A stretch of 64,000 nt of DNA from Rhizophagus irregularis (lineage: Eukaryota), in assembly GCF_026210795.1 (NCBI RefSeq), contig NC_089434.1:2480001-2544000 (forward strand). Direction: 5' to 3'. Below are positions 21,447 through 50,293 of this stretch, piece by piece. Position 1 is the stretch's first letter. Each line of letters starts with the position of its first letter. The position numbers and the translations under genes are program-made. The notes below the pieces were generated by a model. The model was not told where the DNA came from. It saw nothing but the letters and a program-made list of their open reading frames with translations, and did not search any database.

Positions 21447-24400
21447 AGATATTATTAAATTTTAATTTTTATTATATTTTTAATCGTGTATTTTATTAGT
21501 TTAATATTAAATATTATAAAATAAATATTTACATACAAAAAATCATATTGTCTTTATTCTTATAAATTGTTTAAATGCCAAAACTCTAATTAAATCATAT
21601 AGAAAGTATTGCCGAAACGCCGAAACAGTTTTGGCAAGTTACGGCAGTTTCGTGATTTTGATAGGTTTTGCAATTTCGGCATTTCTTGATGATTTCGCGA
21701 AACTAGTTTTGGCAGTTTCGCGTACGCCATTCTGCCGAAACCCTCTAGTTTCGGCAAGCAACCTTAACCGCGGCAAGGTCAAGACGGGAAATAAGAATAG
21801 CATCGTCAGATGTATGGGCAGTATTGGCAAGAGAATCAGCGAAGTCATTCCAATAAAAATTAGAGTGAGCTTTAACCTTATGAGGTAAAACTGAAAGTTG
21901 TTTATCCACAATCAGTTGTTGAATGATGGCCCAAAGTTCAAAATTGGTAGTCTTATAATAAAGACGAGAATTTGAATAATCAGATAAGAAACAATGTTTC
22001 AAACCCTCGATGGAAGACTGTGAATCTGTATAAATGTGAACTACGGAGTTGGCAGGAAAAGCTGATAAAGCTGCATAAATAGCAGCAGCTTCAGCACGAG
22101 AAGAAAAAGGCCAATCGTGAATAATACCCCGCTTATAAGTGGCAATAGAATTAAGAAAGCCCGAATCTTTGACAATTTGAACCCAGCCCCATCCCATAAA
22201 AACATCACTAGTTCCTAAATTAATGAGAGAACCATCAGTGTAAAAGGTATATTGTGAGTCTGAAGAAGGCACAACTGATGATGAAGCAGCAACATCGCCA
22301 GCCGTAAGTAAATGTGGAGTAGGCAAAGCCTTGTCGACAGTATCAGAGGAAGTATGGGGAATATCAGCAGCAGGCATCAAGCGAACTGAAGGATTGCAAA
22401 ATGAAGTTACAAAATCCAAGATTTCCGCCCACGACACCGTAGCAATCAAGCTGAATGTGTGATTCAAAATGGATGATTTCTTCATAGGTAAGATCTATGA
22501 CTGACGAAGAGAGGCTGAATAAGAGCAAGAAACAGAACCAGTAGCAACTGATTTCTTTGAATAGGAAGATTTGTGTATATTTAAATTGCAGCCAGGACAA
22601 GGTTGTAGAGTAATCAAATCGCTCGGACGAGATAAGCAGTCTGAAATCCAATGTACAATGGTACAAGTGGTGCGTTTGGGTTGGATCTAGATCTGTTTAC
22701 CGAATAACGGAAGGCCATTATCATTCATCGTGACAATCCAATTCTTCTTATAACCAGAAGGAGGAGTGCAAGGAGCAAGTTCTTTTGCAATCTGGCTCAC
22801 AGGTCGTTTGTCAATCATAAATCGGTCTTTTAACAAACCAGGTTGATCTGGAATCGTAATATTAGCAAAAAGATTTTTGTACCAATTGGAAAGACGGGCA
22901 TTACCACGCTTTTGAACAGAATTAGCATATATAACAGACCAGGAGAGCAAATGTGTTCCTTGAGGTGTCAAAAGTTGCGAAAGGTAAAAAAGGCCACGTT
23001 TTCGAAGTCTTGTTAAGTTGGCTTTAAATACATCCAAAGAAAGACATTGATAAATGGGAGTATGACCATTGGGGTAGGTTAAATCAGGCACAGACGATAA
23101 ATCAGCGCGTGACAAATGGAAGGGAGTCGAGAGTAGTGAGGCTAAAGTATTGGCGATATAATCTTGTTTAAAAATTAATAAAGAAGACCAACAAGTCCAG
23201 TCCAAAACCATCAAAGGAGAAATAGGAATTAAACAATAAAATTGAATAAATCGCAACCTATAATTAAAAAGTGATTTCATAAAAACAGAAGAAGAATTTG
23301 CTAACAAAAATAAATTAGTAAAATGATTTTGTTGTTGAAATGAAAATAAATTGATCAAACCCAAAGCATGAGTTAAATATAACACTACATTAGGAACAGA
23401 ACGTGATAATTTGACCTTGTGTTTAACTAAGGCACGAACTGAAGAAGTAATAGTGGAACATTCAGCCTCAGATAAATGTGTGACTTGCATTTGATAATCC
23501 AATTTCAGAATCAAAACAGTATTATAAAGATACACCACTTGTTGAACAGTCAGTTTCGCAGGGCGAAGAATTGCAGAGAAAGAATTACATTCTCGCTTAA
23601 GTTATTGTCGAACAAAGTTCCTAGAGCCGTTAATGTTGAACCAAACTCCTAAAAACCGGAAAGATGAAAACATAGGAATAGGAGTAACAGTAATGTTGGG
23701 CGTAGAGTTGAGCGATGAAATTGACAAATTAAAGGCTATAGGAAACAAATCTCGAGAAGCAGCAACTGCATTGGTGGCTAAAACATATTTGTTATGGTTG
23801 GCTGAGGTATTGTTTAAACAATAAAATTCTTCAGTAATAGACAACATATGTTCCATTCCTTCTTTAGAAGAAGAGATCAAAGTAGAATCATCCATGAACA
23901 CCAAATTATTAATTTCTAAAACATTCAGAGAGCAAGAAATTGATGGAGCAGTGTAGGGAGCCAATGGAGAAACCAAACAATAAGAGTCTTTCTTCTCATT
24001 TTTGAGAGTTGTAAGCAGAGGGTCTAAATAAATAACCTATAAAAGCGGAGAGATAACTTCACCTTGATCTATTCCAATTTTAACTCTATATGGTGGAGTA
24101 GGGCCATGTGCAGTAATGACACGGTTAGAACGTGACATAAATAAAGAAAGTAAAAATTGAATTGCATTTTGAGGCAAACGTAAACGTTGAAGAGCAAAAC
24201 GCAACATAGATAAATCTACAGAGTCAAATGCTTTTGAAATGTCTTGAGAAAAAATCCACAAGGGTTGTTTAGTGACTACCGAATCATAGATAATGGATTC
24301 CAGTGTAATAATAGGATCACGGCAGGAACCTCCAGGTAAACCCGCGAAATTACCACCTTGGAAAATATGGTGGGAGGCAAGCAAAGGAGCCAAACGATTA

Positions 24401-27400
24401 TAAAAAAGTTTAACCAAAGCCTTACGAATCACCTCAAATAAAGTAATAGGACGTGTATTTTTAAGTTGGCATTTCCATTCATGCGGTTTAGGAATAGGAA
24501 AAACAGTAGCTTGTCTCCATAAATCGGGAATATTTGCTTCTGATAAACAGGCACAAATTAAATTGAAAAGCAAAGTAGAAGCAGAAGGACCTAGGTGTTT
24601 CAACATCTCATACGAGATCATAGAAGGACCTGAGGCTTTGTCATTAGGCATGGAGGAAATTGTTGAGGACCATTCATCAAGGGTAGGAGGATCCATTAGT
24701 GAATCAAAAATAGCTGGAGAAACATCAGCAAGTGGTGCATAAGCGTTAGACCATCGTTCAGGCAAATCCTGTATAGAAGAAGGAGTAGTAGAAGTAATTG
24801 GAACAAAATTTTGAAAATGTTCAATAACTTCTTGATCAATAGCATCTGGAGAAGTTAATAAAGTGGGTTGTGTTAGATGATCAATGAAAACACGATCAAG
24901 AACAATTCGTTGTCTGGTTCGTGACAAAGCAGAATCTATAAAAGTGGAAATATTATTGGTAAAGTTATCATTCCGAGCATCAATTTTAGCCTGAATAGAA
25001 GAGGCTTGAAATTCTTTTTCTTTTAGCAAAAGAAGACTTCGCAAAAGCAAAGTCATATTTTCTAGGGTTTGGAGTAAATTGGCAAAATCATCAATTCTTG
25101 CATCTCGAAGAAAGGGTGGAAAAATAATAGGTGTAACAAAGGTTTGTTTATAAAGGGATAAAATATTATTAAGACGTATATAATATAAAGACCACTTAGT
25201 TTCATGATGCATAGAGTATGAGATAGGGGTCTTATGAAGGGAACGGATAGTTTTAGCCACTTTGGACAAAAATCTATAAGACTGGCATAAACTTTCCAAG
25301 GCTTTAGGCTTCTTTGGAATATAAGTATTGCCCACAGTAACTGAAGGCAATGTGGAATTAGCAGCTTTGATAATCCTAGAATGAAGATATTCACATTTCT
25401 GATTGAGAGGCCAAGCGTCAAAAACAAGTGGATCAATTGGACATAATTTATCCAAATTATCAGCAAAAGCAGTCCATTGATCAGCAGAAATGGAGTCATA
25501 TTTGAAAACACGTCGAGTATTACGACCAAGTTGACGAACTCGTGCAGATTTAATAGCATCTGATAATAACGAAGCATCAAAATATGTAATAATAGGGTTA
25601 TGATCTGAAATGTGTAAATCGTGAGCATCAAAAATAGAAGCTGTTAACATATATTGGCGAAGAAGTGGACAAGACCAAACAAAGTCGATACGGGTAATAG
25701 TGTCCAAATGGTGATAAGTACCTAAGGTACCGGATAAATTAAGGGGGGTGCAATCCTCGTAATTATGAGAAAGCAAATAATGAAATAATTTGTGAATTCG
25801 TTTAGCAGCAACCTGAGGTTGATGCAGAAAGATAGGGTAATATTTATCCAAATTCATATTAAAATCACCGCAAATAGCATGGTGAAAATTTTGTGAAGAA
25901 GTTTGGGAAATTAAAGAAATTAATTGATCAATGACTTCATAACGAAGAACAAGATCATTTGTAGGGGGAATGTAGACGACAAATATACGCAATTTAACAT
26001 TGCCTTTAAAAAACAAGTCTACAGAAAGAATACGGGAGGAATGGGATTGATAAAATTGGACATGAGTGGCTAAAGAGTTATGTATAAATAAAGAAACACC
26101 ACCAGAAGAGCGGCCGTGTTTGGTGGAGTCCAAATCAGAATGAAAAGAAGTATAATCACAAACTCGTTTAGACAAAAATTTCATTTATTTAGGCGATAGG
26201 TGTGTATCAACAATACCGCCAAAGGAAACGTAATTTTGTAAAAAGAAAGAAGAAATTTGGTCCATTTTAAAGGAACCTTGACCAGGAGTTTTAAGACCAT
26301 TAACATTAAAAGAAGAAATGTTAAAAGAATTGGGAATGGGGGAAGTAGAGGAAGAGGAAGAAAATAAAGTAGCAGATAAAGGATCATTAAAAATATCACT
26401 AAAATCAACGGGGTTGGGGGGATTTCGCACAAAGGTATCATAATCTATGTGGTCATTCATCATTATAACACTATGATAGAAACTGCGGGGTGAAAGAAAG
26501 GGATAACAAATTAATCAGACGAAGTCATATTGACTAAGTCCGAGGAAGAGCCACCAGAAATGGAGCTAATAAATCTTTCAATGGAGCCAGATAAGTGATC
26601 AAATTTGTTATCTAAAGAGCGTTGAAATGAATAAATTTCAGCACGTTCTTTATTAATAGCAGCTTCATTAGCATTTTCGGAGATGGGGGAAGAAGAAATG
26701 GTGGAACGGGGAACAGGAACCGTTGGGGGAGGGAGAACCGAGCCGGAAGTAAGCCTGTTCGAAGTGGACGGGTTAGATTGTGTTATATAAGGGGGGTGCT
26801 TTGATGATTGTCAACAAGCATATGTGAAGAATTATTGGGATCAGGTGAAAGAACATCGTCCTGTAGATGCCCAAAAACATGACGTTCCAGCCGAGACATC
26901 CTCTGATCAGCTAATTCAAGAGCATGAATTCTAGTACGTACACTAGCCATATCTTCTTGAAGGCTTTTAAGCACCGAAAGGATCTCTTGAATTTGGGAAC
27001 AATTAGGATCCACCAAGGAAGGTTTGTGGCCAGTCGAGTTGGGAGTAACAATGTTATTACGTTGAGAAGTTGAAAAGGAAACTGAACGGTCTTTGCCTTT
27101 ACGTTCATTAGATCGAGGTCGTTGAGCAGATTGAGTAGAATTACGGAAATTAGAAGAATTAGGCGAAGAAGCATTATTGGTGGTATTGTGATTCCGTTCA
27201 GCATTTTTATCTGGATGGTTACGTTGTTGAGAATTAGAACGATCATTGGATTGAGAACGGGAACGATGTCTACTGCGATTAGCAGAAGAATTATTATTAT
27301 TAAATTGACCAATATTGAAACGTTCTTTCAAGTGTGCTACAGGATTGCGAGTGCGTGAGCGACCTCGAGAGTTGTTCAATGGGCATGCAGTAGGAGCGCA

Positions 27401-28384
27401 GCCAAGTTTGCCGCATCTGTGGCAAAGCTTGTTCGTATTTTCCGGAAGTTCCCACTGGAGTCGATGACCTTGCAAGGCGATTGATTGTTCCATTGCAGTG
27501 TCCATCATTTGTTGCGATTTAAAAGTGATGTAAGCCCATCGTTTAGGTTTATAAGAATTAAGAGACAGGGGATATTAACAGCCATAGCACCAACTGCTCG
27601 TACCAAGGGTGCTAAATGCACATCTTTTGTGTTAGGAGGGAGCTGAGATAAAACAGCAACGAATTCACGTCGCGATTTCTTTTGATCGGGTAAAGGAGCG
27701 TGTATAGTAACGTAAACAAGTAGAATAACAATAGATCGCCCACTGTTTATCCATAAAATGTTGGATGGAGGAGACATCATCATAAACGATACGAGCTTAT
27801 TGGACTTTAGCAATAGCACGTGTATGAAGGCGACAGGACTGTATGTTACCATACTTTTTGAAAAGAGCAGTAATATCATCTTTCTTGATGAAAAACGGGA
27901 TGTCAGTAATTTGAATTGCCCAGAGATCTTCATCAGTTCGGAGTTGTTGAGGGTCATGTAGAAAAAATCGGAGATCGGCAAGATCATCATGTTGGAGAGA
28001 AAGGCAGGCGTCACGTTCAGTAGTTGAATTAAAATGAATGACTAATCTTTTGAGGTCACCAGAACCAGACATGCGAGCACGGCCAGTGTAGGAGTGATAA
28101 CATCGGGAAATTTTTTAAGATGCAGAACTGCGGAGATCTGTAAAATTAGCAGATCTCCGCATTTTTTTTGTGAATTTATGCGGAAGTCTGCGATTTTGCA
28201 GATTTCTGCTTTTTATTTTTTACAAAATTATGCAATAATCTGCAATTTTGCAAGTTTCCGATTTTTTATGTATGCATTTCTGCGGTAATCTGCGATTTTG
28301 CAGATTTCCGCTTTTATTTTTTACAAAATTATGCAATAATCTGCAATTTTGCAAATTTCCGATTTTTTATGTATGTATTTCTGC

Positions 28385-28628
28385 TAAGGTTGCTTGTCTA
28401 AACCTCTTCAAAAACCTACGATTAGTTTCGTCAAAATTTTACTATAGATTTATTATAGTTTCGGCAGAGTTTCAGCAGTTTCGGCATTTATAATAAGTTT
28501 TAGCAGTTTCGCCTTTCTCCAAAGTTTCGCCAGTTTTTTAATATAACTTTAATATAGTTTCGGCAGAATTTCGCTTTTCGGCGAAACGCCATCTTGCCTA
28601 AACCCCTAGGTTTCGGCAAGCAACCTTA
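28385..28628. mobile_element. 244-bp hAT MITE, second copy
   Basis: Near-identical to 7309-7552, with TSD ATTTCTGC. Confidence 0.95.
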
Positions 28629-28937
28629 ATTTCTGCGGTAATCTGCGATTTTGCAGATTTCCGCTTTTATAACTACTATATTACTAACTGAAGAAAACTC
28701 TGTACTAATACTAACTGACGGAAATCATGAGATAAATTGCTATTTTTTACAGTTTGTTTAATTGCTTTAATTTACTAGCAACCCGTAAGATATCATACTA
28801 TTAAAGACTTCCTCTTTTTGTCGATCTGAAAGGCTTTTCATAAAACTAGCGAAAAAAGCTAAAGTGGCGTTTTAGATATACTGTATGGATGATGAAACGT
28901 CATTTTTCTTTATTTAATACAATTTTATTTTGAAGAT

Positions 28938-31900
28938 TTAGAACATATATTTATTTAACAGAAAGCAATTTTCTTTGTTAAACCTCGGAATTATATGAAC
29001 CTTCTGATTGATAGATTCAACTGGAATAATGTTATATTCTTCAGTATAGTATAATTGGGAATAACCATAGACTATAGGCTCTATTGGATGAATGTCAAAC
29101 CAACGAACAAGAGCAAGTTCGTATGGCTCTTTATATGATCCTCGAAAGAATTTTAAAAATAGCAATACCTTAAAAAGAAATAATTTGTAAAGAACTACGA
29201 AGTAAAATCGTACTTACGAATTTTTAAAGTTCACTTACTTTTCCGTACCAAGCACCTTCGTCTTGTCCTTGATCCTCCGCATGAGTTACTGCGACATTGC
29301 TAAACCATTCTTTTCCTTGAAATTCACCCGTTGATCTTAGAATTTCTCCACTTTCTAGATGAACTGAATCATAAATTTTGATAAAAAAATCATTTTCTGA
29401 ATCTTGCGAGGATGTGTCTAAAAAAGTATCCAACGCTGTAATTATTTGTGCCAATCCTTCAATATAATTTGGATGTGGCGGATTTTCAGATTTTTTTAAA
29501 GATTTTATTTTTTCATCAATGGAGTCTAGATTTAATTCCCAAAGAATTTTTCCAAACCCTTCGGTTTTACGATGAATGACTTTCATGCCACTGGTAGTTG
29601 GAGTTAATTCTTTACGCTTTACCTGCAAAAATATTAATAGTTTAGTATTTATGGTTGGAGAAAAGTTAAAAAAATCTTATAAAACTTTTACTAACAGCGT
29701 TCACCAGTTGTTGCATCACGTGTTTTCTATTTGTTGCTCGATATGGAATTTTAATATATAATTTATGGAGCGTTTCGTAAGTCTCCGTTGATAGGCCATT
29801 CAGTGCACCATATTTGACAATGGCAGGTACTGAAATAATTAAATTAAATTAAAATTTGTATAAATTAATAGCCATCTTCAAATTATATTACCTGCATGAT
29901 AACGCCAACTATGCAGCTTTGGAAAACTGCAATCCGTAGTAGATAATGGGGAGAATATCCTTTTAAACTCTATGCACCAATCAATGATTGCTTCCTATTT
30001 TAGTTAGTAGTTAGATCATCTATTAACTTTTAAAGAAAGTTAATTTTTTTAAATTTTTTCTTCTTACTTCAAAGATATTCAGTTCATTTTCGGTATATGA
30101 TTCTTGTCTGCTCATAGTATACATTTTATTAAACTTCGTGTAAAGTTCACAAAGTTCTTTATAAGTTATTTCATTTTCTTCGCTGAAAATTTCATCCAAA
30201 GCAAAAATCGCTATCTTCATAATATGACGATAGTTTGATGCTGTCATTACTTTTAGTTGACCTACTTTACTTAACAATTTAAGGCCTGGAAAACGTGGAA
30301 TTTGTTGAAGACGTTCGTCGAAAATCTTCTGTAATTCCAACCCTCTGACCTTTTTTAAGATTTCCTGCGTAAACTCCAGTTGATATTTAAAAAGTCCAAG
30401 GTCGATATGATGCATACGGTCGGGAACGCACACTTCGTAAATATTCAGATTTCTGTAAAAAAATTTATATATGTAAAAAAATTTTTACAACGTCGTCATT
30501 ACTTATAAAATTTAGTGATATTTACGGAAATTCCCAGAAGGCATTTTTGACGTAATGTACAGAATACTCCTTTCCTTGTCCAGCGCTAACCATTTCCTTC
30601 ATATTTTCATGAGTTCTGGAAAGTATATCTTCTCGTGTAAGTTTCATATCGTTTAAGTTATTTTGCAGAACCATACAAGTATGGCATGGCATTTTACATC
30701 GCGCTCCTTTATATGTAGCGGTCACATCATCTGCTTCGAGCATATCTGCGAGAAAAAAAGAAATTCGTGCAGCAAATGTTTTCGCTTGTCCATTAATCCT
30801 AAAACATAACGTATCAGGTTTCTCCAGTAAAGGCCAAAGCATGATATTAAAGCATTTGTAAAATATTTCACGCTGCAAACTTCAAAAGACTTCGGTAGTT
30901 TTAATGCCTGAATCTTGAACTTTAGGCAAAAAACCTAAAAGTATTTTAGATTCTGGTAGGTTTCGAACCCAATTTGGAACATTTCCAAGCGTTAAAAATA
31001 CTGGATGGCCTGATGTCTTGCCCAGTCCATCGAAAGTGGTCCCATCTGAATATAAGATGATAGACAATAGGTGATTTAATGGCGGAAGAGTCTTCTCCGT
31101 TTCCAGCCACCAGTCGCCTTCATATGGCTCACCAAACACTCTTGTTTCGCTTCCATCATCCTAAGAATATAAACAACCAAAAATATGAGTGATGATCTTC
31201 AGTTTCTTTTTAGTTATTCATAATTATTAAATTTACCCTTTTTTTCTTTAGAATTCCCTTATAGACAAAATTATTAGCTACTTCTGGTCATTGCAGAAGA
31301 GCTTGAATAGCGCGAAATATAAGACGATAGTAGAGTGTAATGTCAATACCGCTGTAGGTTGAAACAACTTTTTCTTTGAAGTCTAATGAAGGTGAAGTTA
31401 TTTGATTGAGATGGTCTTTGCCATTTTTGGTTGATTTCGGTAATGGAGATTCTTCCAGATTGCTATATTTATTAAAGAATTTAATTATTTGATCTCCAAT
31501 TTTGTTAGATATATTACCCTCTACAATTAATCTCATGAAATCTCTGTATGCATCGTTTGGCCACTTTGCTACGCGTTCTGGTAGATTTTTTCCTTCAATA
31601 GCATCTAAAGCATCATCTAACGATGCTCCTTCAAGATCTTCAGGATCTAGATCAATGTTGTCGCATTTACTGGTATTTCTGTTCCCAACTCCTCAAAATT
31701 TTCTTCAAAAATTTCTTCAGCTCTCTCTTCTATATTTTCTGATTTTGATCTTTTTCGCAGATTATAACATGGTTCAGATTCTAAATTGTCTGCATCTTGA
31801 GTTGGAATTTCGTTGATTATTATATCCTCCATCTCACCAATATTATCATCTTGGTATGTGGATTTTTCATGCGAAGTAAATGTATCTGGCATTGTAATGG

Positions 31901-32099
31901 GTGTATTCCATAACTGAACATCATGTTCTGGCATAACCGCTGTTCTTGATGGTTGTCGCGAGAATCTTTGAACGTGTTCACTTGGTTCACTTGGTCGAGA
32001 AGTTGTTGTTCTTCCATGGTGTTTGGCATTAGCGTGCTGTCTCAAACCGCTGGGAGTTGAAAAATATCTCTTGCAAATTTGACATTTATATCTGACCAT
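28938..32099 (-). pseudogene. Plavaka transposase with N-terminal C2H2 finger, multi-exon
   Basis: CQIC..H..KH, WW..E..LP..IILYSDGT..HPVFLTLGN, ADMLE, PDRMHHIDLGLF and KLHSW. Confidence 0.85.
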
Positions 32100-32359
32100 T
32101 TTTCTTTAGAAATCAATGCGAGTTTAGAAATTAACGCAGGAAAATTTTTTTGATAGTTTCACGCGAGAAATATTTATGAAGATTTACTTTTGGTATATTT
32201 TTTTTTTACTGATTATCAAGCGAATATAAATTTTACTGATAATTGATTATTTTTGTTTACTGAAAGATAATTAATTTATTTACTGATTAGTAATTAATTT
32301 TTTTCATTTACTGATATTTTTAATTCGGGAGTAACTGATTTTTTTACCAATTCATTAAC

Positions 32360-32680
32360 AATTAATTTATTTAATTTACTGATCCTTAAATATATTTTAA
32401 TTCAGGAGTAACTGATTTTTTAAAAAACTTCCGGCAAAACTTTTAACCTTACACAATTTTTCAATTATTTATAATGTAAGAATTTTTTCATTTTTTTTCG
32501 GTTGGCTGAATCGTCGCAATAATTAATTTATTTAATTTACTGATCCTTAAATATATTTTAATTCAGGAGTAACTGATTTTTTAAAAAAATTCCGGCAAAA
32601 CTTTTAACCTTACACAATTTTTCAATTATTTATAATGTAAGAATTTTTTCATTTTTTTTCGGTTGGCTGAATTGTCGCAT
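32360..32680. repeat. Tandem duplication, 161-bp unit, between the divergent Plavaka genes
   Basis: 32360-32520 is repeated almost exactly from 32521. Confidence 0.9.
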
Positions 32681-32801
32681 ATTTTTACATTTATATGAAT
32701 CTTAACAATTTTTTTTCAATTTTTCGAATTAATTGTTGTTTGAATTTTTCTCCGCAATATTTTTCCTATACAAATTTTACGAATTTAGAATTTAAGTGAT
32801 T

Positions 32802-34611
32802 ATGGCGTCTAAAAGGTCAAAAAATGCAAAAAACTCAAAAAAAAGAAAGCAAGCACTTGACGTTCCTGAAGGACAAAGAAGAAAACAAGCACTTGACGTT
32901 CCTGAAGGACAGAATGAAAGCTAACAAAATATATTTGCACAAATGTTATCAGGTAGTTAGTCGTCAAGATGCTGATATTTTGCAATTTAACATTATAATT
33001 AACTTTTGCTGAACGCCAACAGTAGAATCTTCAGAAATTCCTAAAGATCAGCGCACAGATCGTGAAAAATCACCTATTGGTCCTTTCGTACTCGTTACTC
33101 TATTTGATGTAGATCGTGGAAGATCTTTAGTTAAATCTGTTTCTTTTACTCCAGCAAATCGTGAGAAATCCTCAACAAATCGCGAGAATTCTTTAGTCAG
33201 GACTGCGCATACTGAAACTTCCGTTTCAACTACATTGACGCCATCTGTAACTCCTATGAGTTATGAAAGAACTTCGAGGACGCCAACTCCCATACTTAGT
33301 CCAATGCAAATTGACCTTGATAAAGAAATTGATTATTATAACGTCGATGACGATGATAACGAAGAACATAATGATAACCGTGATAAAAGTGATACCCGTG
33401 AGCCTTTACCAAAACCACATAATGTAGAGGGTGAACGTTACCTAACTGTGAAAGAGTTTAATTATGCCATGAATGCATTAGATGGAAAGGTAAACGCCAT
33501 CTACAAACTTTGTCGATATATTGGAGATCAGCAACAAAAAAGTATTCAAGATACGCAAAATGTTGCAAAAAGTGATGTATTAAGCGATGATTTCTGGAAT
33601 GTAAGTTAATTAAAAATTATCAACTTGATTTTAATCTAAAGATACTTATAATAACCAAATATCTTCACAGCGCGTTTATAAAAATGTAGCTAAAGAACTT
33701 ATTCCAACGTCTTTATATCCTTCGGATATAGAATACCGAAAGGCTTTAGAAACATATTTATCTAAACATGCAGAACATTACATTAAAAATATTGGGCAAA
33801 ACGCGTGGATTTCTTTATTTTCAGATAAGTTGTTGGCAGAGGTATGTGAAATATTAATAATCGTTAAAAAAAGGTATTTTTTTATATTTATTTAACTTTT
33901 TTTTAGATAAAAACTAAATGCAGAAGCAGGAGAAATGATTTTGCCGCAAGTATCAGGAGTGCCATGTTTTCCGTCTTTGGAGAACAGCGATTGGAACGCA
34001 TAGATAACAATTCTCCTTCTATGAAGATCGCTGAATGGAAACAGAATCAAAAAACGCGTAATGCGTTTTATGAACTTTTCAAAAATCACGATATTCTAAT
34101 GAAAATTGGCCATTCAGTTTTCAAACAGTATAGGGATAAAGAACTTCCTTTTACGCATTGTGCGTATATTTTATCAATATGTGACATCTTGTTAAATTCC
34201 AATAGCTATAGTATTAAGTGTAATGACAAGTCTGTTACGAAAAGAGTCGAATTTTTTCTAGTAAATAATTTTCGCAAATTTTCGCAGTTCTTTTAATCTT
34301 TTAATATTTTACAGATATTAATCTATAATTAATTAACAGCAAGCGTTTAGAAATAAAACGCAAATAACTCCTCGAATAATGGAGGAATTAGCTGAAAAAG
34401 AAGCGAAAGAAGTTAGTCAAAGAACTGATCAATACGAGTCAGCAGTCGCAGAAGAGAGCAGCGATTCAGTTGAAAATGAAAATTATGATGATTTTGTAAG
34501 TTAAAGTTATTATTTATGTTCGATTATACACTTAATTGAATTATTTTACTAAGCTAAATCATCATTTTTTTTTAGATTAATAATCTAGATTCGCAATTTC
34601 CTCAGGATTAA
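32802..34611 (+). CDS. Plavaka accessory gene, multi-exon, unknown function (bounds approximate, possibly pseudogene)
   Basis: ORF segments 33235-33609 and 33964-34296 with GT-AG introns, inside the TIRs. Confidence 0.55.
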
Positions 34612-34980
34612 TTGTATTTCTTTGAAATACTAATTTTTTTATAATTCGTAATTTTATATTTTTTAATTGTATTTCTTTGAAATACTTTAATTTTTTTTAT
34701 ATCATTTTTTTTATATTCTTTAATCGTATTTCTTTGAAATACTTTAATTTTTTTATATCATTTTTTTTTTATATTCTTTAATTGTATTTCTTTGAAATAC
34801 TTTAATTTTTATATCATTTTTTTTATATTCTTTAATTGTATTTCTTTGAAATACTTTAATTTTTATATCATTTTTTTTATATTCTTTAATCATATTTCTT
34901 TGAAATACTAATTTTTTTATAATTCGTAATTTTATATTTTTTAATTGTATTTCTTTGAAATACTTTAATTTTTTTATACT
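34608..34980. repeat. AT-rich minisatellite, about 55-58 bp unit
   Basis: Repeated TATTTCTTTGAAATACT core. Confidence 0.85.
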
Positions 34981-36164
34981 GTAATTCGTATTTTTACGCG
35001 AAATTTTACGTTGCTTTTTTTTGGTAGAAATAAAGAATTGATTATGATTAATTAATATAAATGGACTATAAATTATCATATATTAATTGTATTTTATATT
35101 TCGATTTATTTCAAAGGTTTTTTATTTAAAAATCCGCGCAGAACATTGCTATTTATAAAATCTGCGCAGTTTTTTATTAGAATTTTCCTCTAATGTTTTG
35201 CGCCAGGGTATAAGATCTGCGCAGATATAATTTCTGAAAATCTGCGCAGATCTGCTCCCCAAAAAATTTCCCGATGAAGTTTCCAAAAGGAGATTATTGA
35301 CAGCGTCAATCATAGCCCGATTGGTAGGATATTTTTTAACAAATTCAGGGGAAGTATTAGGCGCCGCAGCAGCCTGATAATCATGTCTAAGAATGGAAAT
35401 AGTGGGCGTGTCAAGGAGAAGAGGAGAAGTATCATTGGTATCCATAATATCCTTATTGGGAGACGCGTTTAAGGGGAAGTTTCTTTGTCTATTGGGGCAT
35501 GTATGGACGTGTCGGTACCAGACGTGACAGAACCATACGCAGAAGGCGCAGTAGGATCGTTAGGAGGAGGAGACGAAAAGTTGTCAGCATTATTTTGTTG
35601 AGGAGGAGTAGTATTACTACCTCCAGCGTCAGCCGCTGAGTCGGCGACGTAGTCTTCTTCCATAGGATTTTCTGGGAGCGTACGGGTACGTTTGGAAGGG
35701 TTGTTTTTATTGTTTGTTTGTTCATTATCAGAGTTCGAAACGTCAGAGCCGAGTCTTTATTTTTGTTTCGTTTGTCTTGACGCTTGGCAGGTCCCCCGTT
35801 AGGGTTATTGCCAGCTTTTTTGTTACCTTTGAGAGACATTTTAGTAGTAAAATAAGAGATGTGTTAGTATGAAGAATAAAAATTTCTTAAGTCACACTTT
35901 CGGCAGATTGGCTTATTTTTCGGGGGGGTTTCAAAAATCGTTTTTTGTAAATATCTCGGCATCCAGTGGTCCAATTTTGATGAACTTTTTTTTATTTTGT
36001 AGAGCTAAATGAGGGCTACAAAATAAAAAAAAGTTCATTAAAATTGAATTACTGGATGCTGAGATATTTACAAAAAACGATTTTTTGAGTTTCAGCAAAA
36101 AGGGGTGTTTTTGGCCAAAAGTCCATTATGACCTTTATATTAGATATCCGGGGTCCTGTACATA

Positions 36165-40625: not shown

Positions 40626-41207
40626 GCCCCACAGAGGGGGGATATAGGTACTGTGAGGCCGTGAGGCCGAGGTGAGTGGAGCCTGTGACACATACTACCA
40701 GCCCGACAACTATACCTATTGGATTCAGTTTCACATATAGTAGTAATAAACCAAATGATAACTATTGAATAATTACTTAATTTATTTAAATTAATAAATC
40801 CTTTCAATCCGAATAGCCTAAATTTTTATATAGTTATCAATCGGGTATATGCCCTATTGATTACTAATTTTTGGCTAACCTATTAGCCTAATAGTTACCA
40901 ATAGGGTATATGCCCGATTTTTTAGCTTTCGACCTGTGTTCATAAGTCATATAAATTATATGATATTATATGTTAATACTGAAAAACTCTATATAAGTTG
41001 CAATTAAAATAGGTAAAATCAAAAAACATTATTTCAATCAAAAAAAAAATATACATTATTAATAAATATAATAATTTTAATTATAAACAAAAAATTTCAT
41101 ATTGAAATGGAATTTATTGATGTTGTTAAAATTTTAAATTTGAATTATACATGCTGCCCAAATTATTTTGGAATGCCATAATTATAATTTGCACTGGTCA
41201 AAAACCA

Positions 41208-44200
41208 GGCAAACGTGGCATAGTAGCCTTTATCTTTATTAAATTTATTCGAACTTTACAATTTACAATAAAAATAAAAAGAAAATATAAAAATAAAACT
41301 AACTAAAAACAAAGCTATATAGTCTCCTAAGAAAAAATAAAGTAAAAAATTAATCTAAAAAAGAAAAATCGCATTACACTAAATTTCCCCAGATCTTCCC
41401 CCTTGATATATTCCAACCAAAGTAGAAGCAACTATGCTAACAAAATAACGAATAGCGCGCCCACTATAGAAATCGACACTCCATCCTGCAAAAGCTGTTA
41501 TTAAGAAGAGACGCGTTAGACGACCCATAAAACCCGAAAAGTGATTAAACCAAGGCAAACCATATTTCATCGAGTTCTTCAACCAATCGGTTCTGGAGTC
41601 ACGTGAATCGTGTAGGGTCGGAGGTGGTAAGGATGAGTAAGGTATGTACGTTGACAATGGCAAATTAGAAGGCTTCGGAGTAGTTTTCAACTTATAAGTA
41701 AAAACCAGGCAAACGTGGCATAGTAGCCTTTATCTTTATTAAATTTATTCGAACTTTGACAATTTACAAAAATAAAAAGAAAGATATAAAAATAAAACTA
41801 ACTAAAAACAAAGCTATATAGTCTCCTAAGAAAAAATAAAGTAAAAAATTAATCTAAAAAAAAGAAAAATCGCATTACACTAAATTTCCCCAGATCTTCC
41901 CCCTTGATATATTCCAACCAAAGTAGAAGCAACTATGCTAACAAAATAACGAATAGCGCGCCCACTATAAAAATCGACACTCCATCCTGCAAAAGCTGTT
42001 ATTAAGTAGCACCGTTAGACGACCCATAAAACCCGAAAAGTGATTAAACCAAGGCAAACCATATTTCATCGAGTTCTTCAACCAATCGGTTCCGGAGTCA
42101 CGTGAATCTTGTAGGGTCGGAGGTGGTAAAGATGAGTAAGGTATGTACATCGACAAAGGCAGATTGGATGGCTTCGGAGTAGTTTTCAACTTATAGGTAA
42201 TGTTCATCGCATTTTCCCATCTACTTTTCTCATAGAACGCGGATTCCAGATTCGTCTTCTGAATTTCTGGACAAAATTGTTATGAATAGCAGCGATAACT
42301 TTAATCGCAGAAGTTCTCGGAATGGATAAATCAACAAATAAGTCGATGAAAAGTTTGGGTAAGCAACCACGGATAAGGGCGAAGGAGGACCAATTTGTAG
42401 AAGAAAAGGACCAGCATGAAAGAGAAGTAAGTTTAGCTATAAATGGAGTAGGATCAGTATCAACCAAATTACTCGCTTCCAGAAGTTTGGAAATCAAATG
42501 ATTTTGATAAGATTGGAGAATTTGCTGCATAGGCAGACGTCGTCTTTTGCACATAAAAAGGTGCATCAGGTCTTCCATGCGGTCGATACAAGAACGGCAA
42601 GTTAATTCGTCCATGTATAAGTCTGGTCGGGTCCGTTTAAGCTTTTCCAGTGTAGGCAAATCATCCAAGAAAAGTTTGAATTTAAAGGTTAGGTGTCTTG
42701 AAGCGTGCTCAGGAGTAAAAGATGCATCATGAGAGGGCTTAAAATTTGCGTGAACCAAGTAAGCTTCCCAGTCAACAATATAATCTATATTAATTGATAA
42801 TAAAGTAATAAAGTGAAATCGCGTTAAATTTAACAAATCGCGCATTAACTGCGTTTGATAATATTGTTTTAGGAGGTGTCGTGGATTAAATTCACAAACA
42901 ACATCATTGTCATAAATTAAGACAAAATCATGGGCAGAGGCCAGGTCCATTCCAGAGATCAAAATACTGGTTGACGCGGTATGAGCAGTATTGGCCAAGG
43001 AGTCAGCAAAATCGTTTAAGTAATTGCCAGAATGAGCTTTAACTTTGACGGGAAGGACAGTCAAATTTTTTGAGAGGATGGTTCGCTCGATAATAGCCCA
43101 AAGTTCAAAATTTGTAGTTTTATAGTACAAACGACTATTTGAATAAATAGAGGAAAAACAACTTCGGAGACCATCAATGGCAGTTTGCGAGTCAGTATAA
43201 ATAGTAACTTCTGAGTCACGTGGAGAAATAGTTAAAACTGCATAAATAGCAGCAGCCTCAGCACGAGAAGAAGAGGGATTATCACGTATGAGGCCGTGAG
43301 CGATAAGTGGCGATAGAGTTAGGAAAACCTGCATCAGGGACAATTTGCATCACCGAAGACCAGCCCATAGAGACATCGGGAGTGCGCCTAAATTAATAAG
43401 AGACCCATCAGGCTGAAAAAGGTATAACGCGAATCCGAGGAAACGACCAGCGGGGAATTTGCAAAGACAGCAGCAGCCGAGGATTCAATAGTGACAGGAG
43501 TATTAGGGGCTATAGCGGTATCTGCAGAATAAGAATCGGAAACAAAATCCAATCTACTATAATAAAGACGGACACCATCTTCTATATCAGCCCAGGTAAA
43601 AGGTGAAGTCACTTCAGAGGTAGTACGTCTAATTCGTTCATTGGTAGTGGGCAAAATAAGCGAATGGCGTAGAGAGACCGTAGTTGTACATAGGGTTAAA
43701 TCAGCATTCCGTTTTTGGAAGGAGGTAGGGGAATATGGGCAGCGCAGCCAGGGCAAGGAGAAAGTCGAATAAGATCTCCAGGCGAAGATTCGCAATCAGG
43801 AGAGACCCAATGGACAATGGAACAAGTACGCGACTTGTTTGGACCAAAAGTTGTTTGCCGAAGATGGGAGAACCAAGATCGTCTAACGTGACAATCCAAT
43901 TTTTTGTAGTGGGAGGAGAGGATAGACAAGGTTCCAATTCATAAAATGAAGAAGCATTCGTATGCAGAGTAATAAACTGATCCAGCAAACGATTATTGGA
44001 GTCAGGAACAGTGGTAGCTTGTTGGATATCTTTATACCAATAAGGGATACGGCCAGGGCCACGTCGTCCAACCAAATTATCATAGTAAGCCTTCCAGGAA
44101 ATTAAATGAGTTCCTTGAGGAGTAACGAGCTGAGATAAATAAAACAGTTGTCGTTTACGCAAGATGGGAAAATAGGCTTTAAAGGCTTTAGGCGTCATGC

Positions 44201-46486
44201 ATTCAAATAAAGGAACGCATCCATCTATCAAGGACAAATTTGGAAGCTTCGATAATTGAGTGTGAAGCAACCGAAAAGGAGTAGAAGACAAGAGAGCAAT
44301 AGTGCATGCGATATAATCTTTTTTTGAAAGAAAATAGAGAAGACCATATAGACCAATCTTTAATTAAAAGGGGAGAAATAGGAATCAAAAAATTATATTG
44401 AATTAAACTCAATCTATAAATAAAAAGAGATTGAATAAAAACAGAAGAAGAGTTAGCCATTAAAAATAAATTAGTAATATGACATTGTCGTTGATGAGCG
44501 AAACAAATTAATCAAGCCCAAGGCATGAGACAAAAATAAAATGGAATTAGGTAAAGAACGAGAAAAGTTTGCTTTATGCTTTACGACAGATCGTATACTT
44601 CGTTATTAGGTGACAATCAGATTCAGATAAGTGAGTAACTTGCATCCGATATTCAAGTTTCGGTATAAGGACGGCATTATGTAAATACACAACTTGTTTG
44701 AAAGAGAGCTTTGCAGGTCGGATGGTCGCAGCAAAGGAGCAGCATTCGCGTTTGAGTTGCTTCGACAAAATCACGGGAGCTCTTAATGTTAAACCAAACA
44801 CCTAAAAAACGAAAAGAAGTTGTCATGGAAATTGGGGTAATAGTAATGGAAGGAACACTATTTAAAAAGGATAAATCCAAATTAAAAGTGATAGGGGATA
44901 AAGTGGAATTCGGAGTCAAAGGCAACGAATTAGTGATTAACACATATTTGTTATGATTGGCAGAAGTGTTATTGATCTGATAAAATTCTTCAGTAATGGA
45001 TAACATAAATTCCATGCCAGCTTTTGACGAGGAAATAAGAGTGAAGTCATCCATAAATACTAAATTATTAATCTTCAAATCAAGAGAAGGACTTGAAGAA
45101 TCAATTAAAGACGGTGTAGAAAGAACATAAGGGTCCATCATCTCATTCTTCAGAATAGTAAGTAAGGGATCAATATAAATGACCCATAAAAGAGGAGAAA
45201 TAACTTCGCCTTGGTCAATACCAATGCGAACCCTATAGGCAAAGGCGTAGATCCACGAAAGAGCTAGAAAACGCGATTAGTGCGTTTCATAAAAGTGAAA
45301 GAATAAACTTAACAGGCGGAGGCAGGAAGACGTATACGTTCTAAAGCGAAACGTAACATCGTTAAATCAACAGAATCAAAAGCTTTAGAAATATCTTGGG
45401 AAAGAATCCAAAGTGGGTTTTTGTTGATATCAGCATCATGGATAATAGATTCTAGAGTAATAATAGGGTCGCGGCAAGAACCTCCAGGAAGACCAGCGAA
45501 GTTACCACCTTTAAGAACATCATGTGAAGCCATAATGGTAGAAAGGCGATTATAAAAAAGTTTGACAAGAGATTTCCTAATCACTTCAAGTAGGGTAATA
45601 GGGCGAGTATTTTTTAATTGACACTTCCATTCGTGAGGTTTGGGGATAGGAAAAACCATTGCTTGTCGCCATAAATCAGGAATATCAGCTTTGGAAAGAC
45701 ATGCTTGAATCAAAATGAGAAGTAAAGCCGAGGTACGAGATCCGAGATGTTTGAGCATTTCATAAGTAATCATGGAAGGACCAGAGGCTTTACCGTTAGG
45801 AGTGGAAGAAACGGTGGATAACCATTTATCAAGGGTAGGGGATTCATTAAAGAATCATAGATGGAGGAGGACACATCATCCATAGGTTGATAGGCAGAAG
45901 ACCATCTATCAGGTAGTGTATCGATAGATACAGGAGGAGTGGACTTTATAGGTACAAAGTTTTGGAAATGGTTAACAACAGCATCATCTATGTCCTTAGG
46001 AGCAGTCAACAACTGAGGTTGAGAAGGATGGTCGATGAAGACACGGTCCAAAGTGATACGGCGACGGGTGCGAGAAAGCGCTGAGTCAATAAAGGAGGAA
46101 AGGTTAGTGTCAAAATTATTATTCCTATCGTCTAAGTGAGCACGGATGGAGGAGTCTTGGAAATCTTTTTCTTGAAGAAATGAAATCCCCGTAAGGATTT
46201 TGAAATATTGGATAAATCATCAAGAAGTGACTTGAAATTATCTTGTCGACATGATGAAAGAGAAAAGGGCAGAGTAGGAATGAAAGTAAAAATTTTCTTA
46301 TATAATTGAAGAATGTTCTGAAGTCGATGCAAATGTATAGACCACTTATGTTCATGAGCAGCAGAATAAGTTAAAGGATATTTGCGCAATAGACGTATCG
46401 AATGCATTAGGCGATTTAAAAACCGATAATTTTGAGTTAAAATTTCCAGATCTTTAGGAACCTTAGGAGTATAATTATTGCCAACA
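41208..46486 (-). pseudogene. LINE B ORF2 (RT, RNase H), with about 500 bp of the 3' end tandemly duplicated
   Basis: QDISKAFDSV, FMDD, YTDSQ, KVKAHSG and CRSC..HLFMC. About 41200-41700 is repeated at about 41700-42200. Confidence 0.9.
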
Positions 46487-46686
46487 NNNNNNNNNNNNNN
46501 NNNNNNNNNNNNNNNNNNNNNNNNNNNNNNNNNNNNNNNNNNNNNNNNNNNNNNNNNNNNNNNNNNNNNNNNNNNNNNNNNNNNNNNNNNNNNNNNNNNN
46601 NNNNNNNNNNNNNNNNNNNNNNNNNNNNNNNNNNNNNNNNNNNNNNNNNNNNNNNNNNNNNNNNNNNNNNNNNNNNNNNNNNNNNN
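46487..46686. other. Assembly gap (200 N)
   Basis: Run of N. Confidence 1.
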
Positions 46687-49600
46687 GCGACTATTCGCCC
46701 TGCAAAGCTCTCTTCCAAACAAGTTGCGTATTTACAATAATGCCGTCATCTATACCGAAACTTGAATACCGGATGCGGAAGTTACTCATTTATCTGAATC
46801 TGATTGTCACCTAATAACGAGAAGTATACGATCTGTTGTAAAGCATAAAGCAAACTTTTCTCGTTCTTTACCTAATTCCATTTTATTTTTGTCTCATGCC
46901 GTGGGCTTGATTAATTTGTTTGCTCATCAACGACAATGTCATATTACTAATTTATTTTTAATGGCTAATTCTTCTTCTGTTTTTATTCAATCTCTTTTTA
47001 TTTATAGATTGAGTTTAATTCAATATAATTTTTTGATTCCTATTTCTCCCCTTTTAATTAAAGATTGGTCAAATAGGTCTTCTCTATTTTCTTTCAAGAA
47101 AGATTATATCGCATGCACTATTGCTCTCTTGTCTTCTACTCCTTTTCGGTTGCTTCGCACTCAATTATCAAAGCTTCCAAATTTGTCCTTGATAGATGGA
47201 CGCGTTCCTTTATTTGAATGCATGACGCCTAAAGCCTTTAAAGCCTATTTTCCCATCCTGCGTAAACGACAACTGTTTTATTTATCTCAGCTTGTTACTC
47301 CCCAAGGAACTCATTTAATTTCCTGGAAGGCTTACTATGACAATTTGGTTGGACGACGTGGCCCTGGCCGTATCCCTTATTGGTACAAAGATATTCAACA
47401 TGCTACCACTATTCCTGACTCCAATAATCGTTTGATGGATCAGTTTAATTTTACGCCTACGATTGACTCTTCCTTTTATGATTTGACTCCTTGTTTATCT
47501 TCTCCTCCTACTACAAAAAATTGGATTGTCACGTTGGACGATTATGGTTCTCCCATTTTTGGCAAACAACTTTTAGTCCAAGCAAGTCGTGTACTTGTTC
47601 TATTGTTCGCTGGATTTCTCCTGATTGTGAATCTTCGCCTGGTGATCTTATTAGACTTTCTCCTCCTGGTTGCGCTGCTCATACTTTCCTTTGCCTCCTT
47701 CCAAAAAACGGAATGCTGATTTAACCCTTTGTACGCCTACGGTCTCTTTACAACATTCGCTTATTTTGCCCACTACCAATGAACGAATTAGACGTACTAC
47801 CTCTGAAGTGACTTCACCTTTTACCTGGGCTGATATAGAAGATGGTGTCCGTCTTTATTATAGTAGATTGGATTTAGATTCCGATTCTTCTTCTGCAGAT
47901 ACCGCTATGCCCCCATATCTCCCTGTCACTATTGAATCCTCGGCTGCTGCTGTCTTTGCAAATTCCCCGCTAGTCGTTTCCTCGGATTCGCGCTATATCT
48001 TTTTCATCGACGGGTCTCTTATTAATTTAAAAGACTCCCGACGTCTCTATGGGCTGGTCTTGGATGCAAATAGTCCCCGATGCAGGTTTTCCTAACTCTA
48101 TCGCCACTTACGCTCACGGCCTCATACGAGATAATCCTCTTCTTCTCGAGCTGAGGCTGCTGCTATTTATGCAGTTTTAACTATTTCTCCACGCGACTCT
48201 GAAGTTACTATTTATACTGACTCGCAAACTGCCATTGATGGTCTTCAAAGTTGTTTTTCCTCTGTCTACTCAAATAGTCGTTTGTACTATAAAACTACAA
48301 ATTTTGAACTTTGGGCTATTATCGAGCGAACCATCCTCTCAAAAAATTTGACTGTCCTTCCCCGTCAAAGTTAAAGCTCATTCTGGCAATTACTTAAACG
48401 ATTTTGCTGACTCCTGGCCAAATGCTCATACCGCGTCATCCAGTATTTTGATCTCTGGAATGGACCTGGCCTCTGCCCACTGATTTTGTCTTAATTTATG
48501 ACAATGATAACGTTGTGTGAATCTAATCCGCGACACCTTCTAAAACAATATTATCAAACGCAGTTAATGCGCGATTTGTTAAACTTAACGCGATTTCATT
48601 TTATTTCTTTATTATCAACTAATATAGATTATATTGTTGACTGGGAACTTACTTGGTTCACTTTAAATTTTAAGCCCTCTCATGATGCATCCTTTACTCC
48701 GAAAGACGCTTCGCACACCTAACCTTTAAATTCAAACTTTTCTTGGATGATTTGCCTACACTGGAAAAGCTTAAACGGACCCGACCAGACTTATACATGG
48801 ACGAATTAACTTGCCGTTCTTGTATCGACCGCATGGAAGACCTGATGCACCTTTTTATGTGCAAAAGACGACGTCTACCTATGCAGCAAATTCTCCAATC
48901 TTATCAAAATCATTTGATTTCCAAACTTCTGGAAGCGAGTAATTTGGTTGATACTGATCCTACTCCATTTATAGCTAAACTTACTTCTCTTTCATGCTGG
49001 TCCTTTTCTTCTACAAATTGGTCCTCCTTCGCCCTTATCCGCGTTGCTTACCCAAACTCTTCATCGACTTATTTGTTGATTTATCCATTCCAAGAACTTC
49101 TGCGATTAAAGTTATCGCTGCTATTCATAACAATTTTGTCCAGAAATTCAGAAGACGAATCTGGAATCCCCGTTCTTATGAGAAATGTAAATGTGAAAAC
49201 GCGATGAACATTACCTATAAGTTGAAAACTACTCCGAAGCCATCCAATCTGCCATTGTCGACGTACATACCTTACTCATCTTTACCACCTCCGACCCTAC
49301 ACGATTCACGTGACTCGGAACCGATTGGTTGAAGAAGCTCGATGAAATATGGTTTGCCTTGGTTTAATCACTTTTCGGGTTTTATGGGTCGTCTAACGGT
49401 GCTACTTAATAACAACTTTTGCAGGATGGAGTGTCGATTTTTATAGTGGGCGCGCTATTCGTTATTTTGTTAGCATAGTTGCTTCTACTTTGGTTGGAAT
49501 ATATCAAGGGGGAAGATCTGGGGAAATTTAGTGTAATGCGATTTTTCTTTTTTTAGATTAAATTTTTACTTTATTTTTTCTTAGGAGACTATATAGCTTT

Positions 49601-49702
49601 GTTTTTAGTTAGTTTTATTTTTATATCTTTCTTTTTATTTTTGTAAATTGTCAAAGTTCGAATAAATTTAATAAAGATAAAGGCTACTATGCCACGTTTG
49701 CC
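46687..49702 (+). pseudogene. LINE B, second copy (3' 3 kb), inverted
   Basis: Closely similar to, but not identical with, the reverse complement of about 41708-44728. Confidence 0.9.
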
Positions 49703-50293
49703 TGGTTTTTAACCAGTGTTGGGATGCCGTAATTCATTCAGTTTATATATAATTTACTATGTAAAGTGCCAAAATAATTTGGGATGTCATAATTGAATTT
49801 GGGATTTTACTTATAATTACGGCAGCCCAAAATAATTTGGGTGGCATGTATAATTTGAATATTATCACTATGATTTATAATACTAATAGTATAGTTTTTT
49901 TAATATCTAAATATATTGATCATCCTAATTATCTTAGTTGCAATACAGTAGTTTAGCCAAATAACATGAGTCTATTGAACAATAAAAATTAATTGTTTCA
50001 ATTATATCAATATATTACAACAATTAAATAAATTTACTATTAAATTATTGCTATCATTTTTCTTTTACTATATAATTCTTTTATAGCTTTTTGTTAAAAA
50101 AAATACAAGACATATTTTTAACCCTAAAAGCTAAAATTAAAGTGCCAACACTAGTACTTCTTAAAATTACTGATGATTTATATCTTTATATACCGTAACT
50201 TTTGCAATTAATAATTACCAAAAAAAAAATTTAGATAATTAAATGGTAAAAAAAAATTATTTAGTTATAACTTAATTAATATATTATACTAAA

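What the first reader, a model, noticed from the sequence alone, without database searches (positions are those of the whole stretch)
41189..49721. LINE pair packaged with a CACTA transposition signature
Seen: two LINE B copies point outward, and each 3' end is followed by the same 16-nt cap. The cap shares CACTGGTCAAA with the right TIR of the CACTA at 8951-16691. The whole unit is flanked by TTG, and removing it restores the host MITE repeat ATAATTTGGGATGCCGTAAT. The same LINE-cap junction occurs at 1-222 with another flank, while LINE A lacks the cap. Inference: either a composite DNA transposon whose multi-kb TIRs are LINEs, or a LINE that targets a fixed position in CACTA TIRs (as Tx1L does in Tx1D).
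Basis: partly seen in the sequence, partly recalled or inferred. Interest (0 to 1): 0.75.

Follow-up and report, generated by a model that had tools for sequence, protein, structure and literature searches.

The report
LINE that targets CACTA transposon ends
In a mycorrhizal fungus, three copies of a retrotransposon sit at the same spot 16 bases inside the two ends of a cut-and-paste transposon, likely because this retrotransposon aims at those ends, a habit so far described mainly in frogs and crocodilians.

Summary
Outward-pointing LINE copies end in a 16-nt CACTA-type cap (41192-41207, 49703-49718), TTG flanks both sides, and the host MITE carries one TTG when empty. The arms are not one duplicated TIR: differences are mostly synonymous (pN/pS 0.15) and 20 of 33 amino-acid differences are family polymorphisms. 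In public contigs, 15 of 20 listed near-identical LINE ends carry the cap, with varied flanks. The sister LINE A is one full-length element with an ordinary 16-bp TSD. Best reading: a Rhizophagus APE-RT-RNase H LINE likely inserts by target-primed reverse transcription 16 nt inside the ends of a CACTA family, and this locus is a CACTA copy hit three times (0.65). It works like Tx1L in Tx1D. Still unseen: the empty CACTA element, the gap contents, and whether capped units move as DNA.

The parts
41143..41188 (.). Left half of the host MITE (183 bp when empty)
   Evidence: 45-nt inverted match to 49811-49855; empty copies in contigs join it to the right half
41189..41191 (+). 3-bp target-site duplication TTG, left copy
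   Evidence: Sequence; one TTG in empty MITE copies
41192..41207 (+). Left cap: terminal 16 nt of a CACTA/EnSpm-type end; 41200-41207 is the 8-nt stretch duplicated by the outer LINE insertion
   Evidence: same start as other CAC[AT]GGTC[AG]A ends at 1308, 1780, 8951, 16691 and 40938
41208..41699 (-). Outer-left LINE B copy, 492 bp, 5'-truncated, with 2-nt microhomology at its 5' junction
   Evidence: 13 substitutions and 7 indels against its neighbour, whereas the neighbour has 5 and 3 against the right arm; junction shown
41700..41707 (-). Second copy of the cap's first 8 nt (TGGTTTTT on the LINE strand): inferred TSD of the outer-left insertion
41708..46486 (-). Inner-left LINE B copy (RT, RNase H, CCHC finger; frameshifted); 5' part lost in the gap
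   Evidence: Pfam RVT_1 and RNase_H; 97% to P0003 over the RNase H region
46487..46686 (.). Assembly gap of 200 N; predicted to hold both LINE 5' junctions and any CACTA interior
   Evidence: contents not seen
46687..49702 (+). Right LINE B copy, from a different source lineage than the inner-left copy
   Evidence: 49 synonymous vs 24 nonsynonymous single-base codon differences in 609 codons; alleles match P0004/P0005 where the left arm matches P0003/P0018
49703..49718 (-). Right cap (one mismatch to the left cap)
49719..49721 (+). 3-bp target-site duplication TTG, right copy
49722..49855 (.). Right half of the host MITE
1..222 (+). Another LINE B 3' end (1-206) with cap (207-222) and a different flank
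8349..35903 (-). Comparator: sister LINE A, one full-length copy split by nested inserts, tail-less 3' end, 16-bp TSD (8349-8364 and 35888-35903), no cap
   Evidence: contiguous protein coordinates across the pieces; the 16-mer occurs twice in the window
8951..16691 (+). Comparator: transposase-bearing CACTA element with related termini and TSD CAC; possible kind of transposase donor
   Evidence: PF02992

Best explanation
Three LINE copies end at the same junction 16 nt inside the two CACTA-type ends of this unit, likely because this LINE family inserts by target-primed reverse transcription at that fixed site, so the locus is likely a CACTA copy whose two ends were hit three times. Inferred order: (1) a CACTA element inserted into the MITE and made the TTG duplication; (2) the LINE endonuclease nicked the strand that reads the cap 5' to 3' just after nt 16, and that 3'-OH primed reverse transcription of the tail-less LINE RNA, which points every copy outward; (3) a second nick 8 nt away made the TGGTTTTT duplication; (4) each insertion regenerates the target, so a later truncated copy stacked on the left arm. 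Read-through RNA that includes the cap may help targeting by pairing (untested). Shown: the anatomy, both duplications, separate source lineages, and recurrence of the junction. Inferred: the nicks, the order of events, and the CACTA interior.
For: Tandem copy at the same junction with an 8-nt duplication, 5' truncation and 2-nt microhomology; it is less like its neighbour (13 substitutions) than the neighbour is like the far arm (5). Arms differ under purifying selection: pN/pS 0.15, 0.28 in the worst case, Fisher p 7e-16 and 6e-10; 20 of 33 amino-acid differences have both alleles among 16 homologues. At >=96% identity, 15 of 20 listed 3'-end junction contigs in four runs carry the cap, with several different flanks starting at or within 6 nt of the cap's end (21 of 26 rows shown; some loci recur between runs; best single run 7 of 8). 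One 5'-junction contig in run X1 ends in TGG just before a LINE T-run, the same duplication (TGG by chance about 0.006 per junction; one case). P0258 from another R. irregularis assembly ends RLPSF, the reading of LINE end plus the cap variant seen at 207-222. The family keeps APE, RT and RNase H motifs in most of 26 aligned proteins. The sister LINE A shows ordinary TPRT with a 16-bp TSD and the same tail-less end. 8 of 120 predicted proteins run from a LINE C-terminus back into earlier LINE sequence, as tandem arrays would give. Precedent: PMC1950540 and PMC4494074.
Against: No empty element with this 16-nt end was found: not in the window, not in viral contigs (10 hits, none resembling the window), not in the supplements searched. 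The 30 letters upstream of the X1 junction lack the ATC[AG]GG stretch that most other CACTA ends of the window show, so they may not be TIR interior. 5 of 20 near-identical ends lack the cap (two distinct flanks), and at >=88% identity run X4 shows 7 capless against 6 capped contigs and X15 shows 8 capless, so targeting is not strict or related families differ. Divergence along the arms is uneven (p 2e-8), so recombination or conversion could have swapped LINE bodies under an old cap. The tandem junction was not seen in any run. The gap hides both 5' junctions.
Confidence: 0.65

Rival explanations
1. Capped LINE ends work as transposon ends: a CACTA transposase moves pairs of outward-facing capped LINEs as one composite DNA element, and the TTG duplication was made by such a move after the LINEs were in place. 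This can coexist with targeting.
For: The unit has CAC..GTG ends and a 3-bp TSD in a MITE. Capped ends are numerous: an exact-junction contig has depth 2067 against 34 for a unique-flank contig in run X7 (rough, the tool warns depth is no copy number). A transposase-bearing CACTA with related ends lies in the window.
Against: The arms come from different selected lineages, so they are not one duplicated TIR. Only 16 nt of end remain outside the LINE, and plant CACTA transposition needs subterminal repeats (recalled, not tested here). No second copy of this composite was seen.
Confidence: 0.2
2. The cap was captured once and is now the 3' end of the LINE B RNA; capped copies retrotranspose to ordinary sites, and this locus arose when two RNAs primed opposite strands at nicks 3 nt apart.
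For: These LINEs have precise tail-less 3' ends, so a 16-nt longer end is conceivable. Most near-identical ends are capped. The empty CACTA was not found.
Against: The inner-left copy has only half a cap, with no second full cap after the stacked copy. LINE-made duplications here are 8 and 16 nt, while this unit has the 3 nt typical of CACTA (PMC12730594). Capless near-identical ends exist.
Confidence: 0.1
3. The pairing is an assembly artefact: two contigs that end in LINE copies were joined across the gap.
For: A 200-N gap separates the arms, and the arms carry many small indels (39 in 3 kb). No read spans the unit.
Against: The outer flanks are the two halves of one MITE and share the TTG. 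A 60-nt contig in run X1 matches the left MITE-cap-LINE junction without a difference over its 48 laid letters, with 30 letters on each side, one short of the tool's bar for bridging. A mis-join would not explain the cap or the tandem duplication.
Confidence: 0.05

Closest known systems
Tx1L in Tx1D (Xenopus laevis)
   Same: APE-type non-LTR retrotransposon inserted at a specific sequence within a DNA transposon (PMC1950540 and PMC4494074, passages read).
   Different: Tx1D is a non-autonomous piggyBac; here the target is a CACTA-type end. The site lies in the terminal repeat, so both ends can be hit and give an inverted pair. This LINE carries RNase H and has no poly(A) tail, and the host is a fungus. 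The primary Tx1 papers were not held.
Tx1-Mar/SINEU in Mariner-N4_AMi and Tx1-9_AMi in Harbinger elements (crocodilians)
   Same: LINE preference for a position inside DNA transposon families (PMC4494074, section 15 and passages).
   Different: Those sites lie about 240-300 bp inside the element and are preferences of Tx1-clade elements. Here the junction is fixed to the base, 16 nt from the terminus.
CACTA/EnSpm (CMC) DNA transposons and their non-autonomous forms
   Same: CAC..GTG termini and a 3-bp TSD, given as the EnSpm marks in PMC12730594 (passage). CMC-EnSpm families are abundant and expressed in R. irregularis (PMC11075540, PMC8647823, passages).
   Different: No transposase or subterminal repeats in the sequenced part; LINE DNA starts at nt 17 from each end.
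Bacterial composite transposons such as Tn10 (recalled, no call)
   Same: Two related mobile elements in inverted orientation bound a unit with one TSD.
   Different: The arms here encode no transposase, the ends belong to another element, and movement as a unit is not shown.

Membership tests
APE-type LINE (non-LTR retrotransposon) | RT of non-LTR type, with APE endonuclease upstream | tested here: met
   RVT_1 in the window copy. Best PDB matches of the family profile are R2 and L1 ORF2 proteins. APE motifs are kept in most of 26 homologues; PF14529 passes its cut-off in LINE A and is weak in P0009 and P0012. The APE of the two long window copies lies in the gap.
APE-type LINE (non-LTR retrotransposon) | TPRT marks: TSD and 5' truncation with microhomology | tested here: met
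   8-nt duplication, truncation and 2-nt microhomology at 41699/41700; 16-bp TSD of LINE A
APE-type LINE (non-LTR retrotransposon) | Poly(A) or simple-repeat 3' tail | tested here: not met
   All five 3' ends in the window stop at GTTTGCC without a tail
Tx1L-like LINEs that target DNA transposons | Recurrent insertion at one position of a DNA transposon | tested here: met
   4 of 4 LINE B 3' ends in the window share the junction (one with the 8-nt part only); 15 of 20 listed contig junctions
Tx1L-like LINEs that target DNA transposons | The empty target element exists | tested here: inconclusive
   Not found in the window, viral contigs or supplements; no genome is held
Tx1L-like LINEs that target DNA transposons | Membership of the Tx1 clade by RT phylogeny | not tested
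   No Tx1 reference sequences were at hand; R2 scores above L1, which does not place the clade
Tx1L-like LINEs that target DNA transposons | The endonuclease nicks the target specifically | not testable with these tools
   Needs an in vitro nicking assay
CACTA/EnSpm DNA transposon | CAC..GTG termini | tested here: met
CACTA/EnSpm DNA transposon | 3-bp TSD | tested here: met
   TTG on both sides, single in empty MITE copies
CACTA/EnSpm DNA transposon | Transposase gene or subterminal repeats inside the ends | tested here: inconclusive
   None in the sequenced part; the gap is unseen
DNA transposon with multi-kb TIRs made by one duplication | Arms descend from one copy and decay neutrally and evenly | tested here: not met
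   pN/pS 0.15, shared family alleles, uneven divergence; the left arm holds an extra copy

The most novel reading that the evidence does not exclude
The LINE does more than parasitise CACTA ends: by landing 16 nt inside the terminus it keeps a working transposon end on its own tail, so pairs of capped LINEs are cut and pasted by the CACTA transposase. The family would then spread by two routes, RNA and DNA, and could carry whatever lies between two capped copies.
Probability: 0.22. Interest if true: 0.78.

Novelty: new variant of a known kind. Interest (0 to 1): 0.52.

Why it matters
The cases of LINEs aimed at DNA transposons that I read about are animal Tx1-clade elements. Eight full-text searches gave no report of a fungal LINE aimed at CACTA ends; Repbase and the GitHub TE library of PMC11075540 were not seen and may hold it. 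If true, this adds an independent origin of such targeting, with the site inside the terminal repeat. That would let a retrotransposon either disable or ride on a DNA transposon. It would also explain large inverted LINE pairs and tandem arrays, which break short-read assemblies and inflate gene models in R. irregularis. It offers an APE endonuclease with a defined 16-nt candidate target to assay.

Tried and rejected
No whole genome is held for this window, so the genome-wide junction list could not be made. The LINE 3' motif found nothing in metagenome, viral or prokaryote contigs. A profile search of metagenomes returned 80 distant relatives (22-33% identity); one has a CACTA-like 10-mer, far from any LINE end, and the only full-length one (L001) ends in an A run without a cap. 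The profile found nothing in viral contigs. Ten viral hits to the cap motif show no likeness to the window. Runs X4, X15 and X7 have no cover at 41174-41185, so they may lack this insertion, but absence in contigs proves nothing. I considered that LINE A also targets a transposon end: it lies 30-45 nt inside a 301-bp MITE, but chance alone gives about 0.3, so I do not count it. An 11-of-16 likeness between LINE A's flank and the cap belongs to that MITE's TIR. Small predicted proteins were searched for translated junctions: 1 of 258 held one. Earlier scan notes held nothing. The 18-nt motif from the X1 junction has only a chance-level match in the window.

Full report
Source. The RNase H region of the left arm is up to 97% identical to proteins named as Rhizophagus irregularis, and all 120 listed hits of 139 are named Rhizophagus. 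No whole genome is held, so the tests rest on the window, on predicted proteins, and on contigs of five public runs (X1, X2, X4, X7, X15 of 24 listed).

Observation. The unit runs from TTG (41189-41191) through a 16-nt cap, LINE DNA on the minus strand, a 200-N gap (46487-46686), LINE DNA on the plus strand and a second cap to TTG (49719-49721). The arms align over 3046 bp at 94.3%. The flanks are two halves of a 183-bp MITE whose ends match at 40 of 45 positions. In one search, 5, 42, 24 and 24 contigs of four runs continue from the right half directly into the left-flank sequence with one TTG. These are family copies, not proven orthologous sites, but they show that the unit is an insertion with a 3-bp duplication. 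CAC..GTG ends with a 3-bp TSD are the EnSpm marks given in PMC12730594 (passage). The window holds other ends that begin CAC[AT]GGTC[AG]A: a MITE at 1308-1780, the transposase-bearing element at 8951-16691 and a lone end at 40938. None shares the full 16-nt cap.

The left arm is two copies. A 492-bp 5'-truncated copy (41208-41699) lies outside a long copy (41708-46486), and between them stand the first 8 nt of the cap, TGGTTTTT on the LINE strand. This is the pattern of a second insertion at the same junction with an 8-nt duplication (6-8 nt, as two T are shared with the LINE). A local tandem duplication is unlikely: over these 500 bp the outer copy differs from its neighbour by 13 substitutions and 7 indels, while the neighbour differs from the far right arm by 5 and 3. 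The outer copy shares two diagnostic characters with the copy at 1-206. One contig of run X1 has a 5' junction at 49628 whose loose end finishes in TGG just before a LINE T-run, which would be the same duplication; it is a single case.

The arms are not one TIR. In 609 codons aligned through P0003, single-base differences are 49 synonymous and 24 nonsynonymous, and 10 codons differ at several sites; pN/pS is 0.15, or 0.28 if each of those counts as two replacements (Fisher p 7e-16 and 6e-10). For 20 of 33 amino-acid differences both alleles occur among 16 close homologues; the left arm follows P0003 and P0018, the right arm P0004 and P0005. The arms therefore descend from different active lineages. 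Divergence is uneven along the arms (p 2e-8), so conversion or recombination may have contributed. The 39 small indels may be partly sequencing error.

Recurrence. At >=96% identity to the left junction, 15 of 20 listed 3'-end junction contigs carry the cap (X1 2 of 3, X4 3 of 5, X15 7 of 8, X7 3 of 4), with several different flanks; 21 of 26 rows were shown and some loci recur between runs. The five capless contigs come from two flanks. At >=88%, X4 shows 6 capped and 7 capless contigs and X15 8 capless (24 of 335 rows shown); the capless ones likely include related families such as LINE A (inference). In X7 an exact-junction contig has depth 2067 against 34 for a unique-flank contig, which hints at tens of capped ends but is no copy number. 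P0258 from another assembly ends RLPSF, the reading of LINE end plus the cap variant at 207-222 (1 of 258 proteins scanned). 8 of 120 LINE proteins return from the C-terminus to earlier LINE sequence, as gene models over tandem arrays would.

The sister family. LINE A and the LINE at 21766-28100 are one element. Protein coordinates are contiguous across nested inserts (P0043 residues 1-1365, 1359-1576, 1576-1685), and a 16-bp repeat found twice in the window flanks it at 8349-8364 and 35888-35903. It ends in the same tail-less GTTTGCC. So the lineage moves by ordinary TPRT, and its natural 3' end lies before the cap. APE, RT, RNase H and CCHC motifs are kept in most of 26 homologues, and the nearest solved structures are R2 and L1 proteins.

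Mechanism. Most likely (0.65), a CACTA copy entered the MITE, and LINE B then inserted three times at the junction 16 nt inside its ends. The strand that reads the cap 5' to 3' would give the primer, which forces outward orientation at both ends; a second nick 8 nt away would give the duplication; each insertion would rebuild the target. The second nick would fall at TTTT/G, near the L1 motif TTTT/AA given in PMC1950540 (passage). Read-through RNA with the cap could add pairing, an effect that PMC4494074 cites for R2 (passage). The nicks, the order and the CACTA interior are inferred. Rivals: movement of the doubly capped unit as DNA (0.2, compatible with targeting), the cap as part of the RNA (0.1), a mis-join (0.05). 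Against the main reading: the empty element was not found, the sequence upstream of the X1 junction does not look like the other CACTA ends, capless copies exist, and the tandem junction was not seen in any run.

Comparison. It works like Tx1L in Tx1D, Tx1-Mar in Mariner-N4_AMi and Tx1-9_AMi in Harbinger elements. I did not test Tx1-clade membership and do not claim it. Papers seen: PMC11075540 (passages; its one supplement searched; its TE library is on GitHub and was not seen), PMC8647823 (passages; supplements searched, file 1 not), PMC11952901, PMC13443276, PMC12730594 and PMC1950540 (passages), PMC4494074 (passages and section 15). PMC85248 and PMC362770 were not held. The passages read on mycorrhizal fungi do not mention LINE target preference, and eight searches listed no such report.

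Verdict. A real feature and a new variant of a known kind: a fungal, tail-less, RNase H-bearing LINE that most likely targets CACTA termini. Interest 0.52; 0.78 if capped pairs prove mobile as DNA.

Noticed in passing
window 7839-8318 and 36156-37534 (minus): One family B DNA polymerase gene (homologues carry PF03175) is split by a 27.8-kb nest of insertions: residues 1-460 and 458-617 of P0141 lie on either side. A D5-like primase-helicase lies upstream (38101-40213), which suggests a Maverick-like element.
   Followed up: partly
window 8319-8363 and 35904-36158: A 301-bp MITE with CAG..CTG ends and a 6-bp TSD (TACATA) is the outermost insert in the polymerase gene and the host of LINE A. Superfamily not determined.
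   Followed up: partly
window 8364-35887: LINE A holds three nested inserts: the CACTA at 8951-16691, an element with hAT-type genes at about 17336-21765, and an element at about 28101-35276 with 37-nt inverted ends and genes that look Plavaka-like (label recalled, not tested).
   Followed up: partly
window 14217-15086 (minus): A zf-BED/DUF659 (hAT-like) fragment lies inside the CACTA at 8951-16691.
   Followed up: no
window 40938: A lone CACTA-type right end lies 250 bp left of the unit; no matching left end was found upstream other than the ends at 1308 and 8951, which have their own partners.
   Followed up: partly
window 1308-1780: A 473-bp CACTA-type MITE with 51-bp inverted ends and TSD ATA.
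   Followed up: partly
run X1, table 5 (49717 back to 49050 or before): One contig runs from an almost full cap back into LINE sequence: possibly a tandem copy behind a nearly complete cap; the letters between are not known.
   Followed up: no
runs X4 and X15, loose ends behind 49703: The mixed consensus of capless ends contains ATAAGGACA in both runs; it may mark a second recurrent target or just shared loci.
   Followed up: no
window 7309-7552 and 28385-28628: Two 97.5% identical copies of a 244-bp MITE whose ends resemble those of the element at 17336-21765.
   Followed up: no
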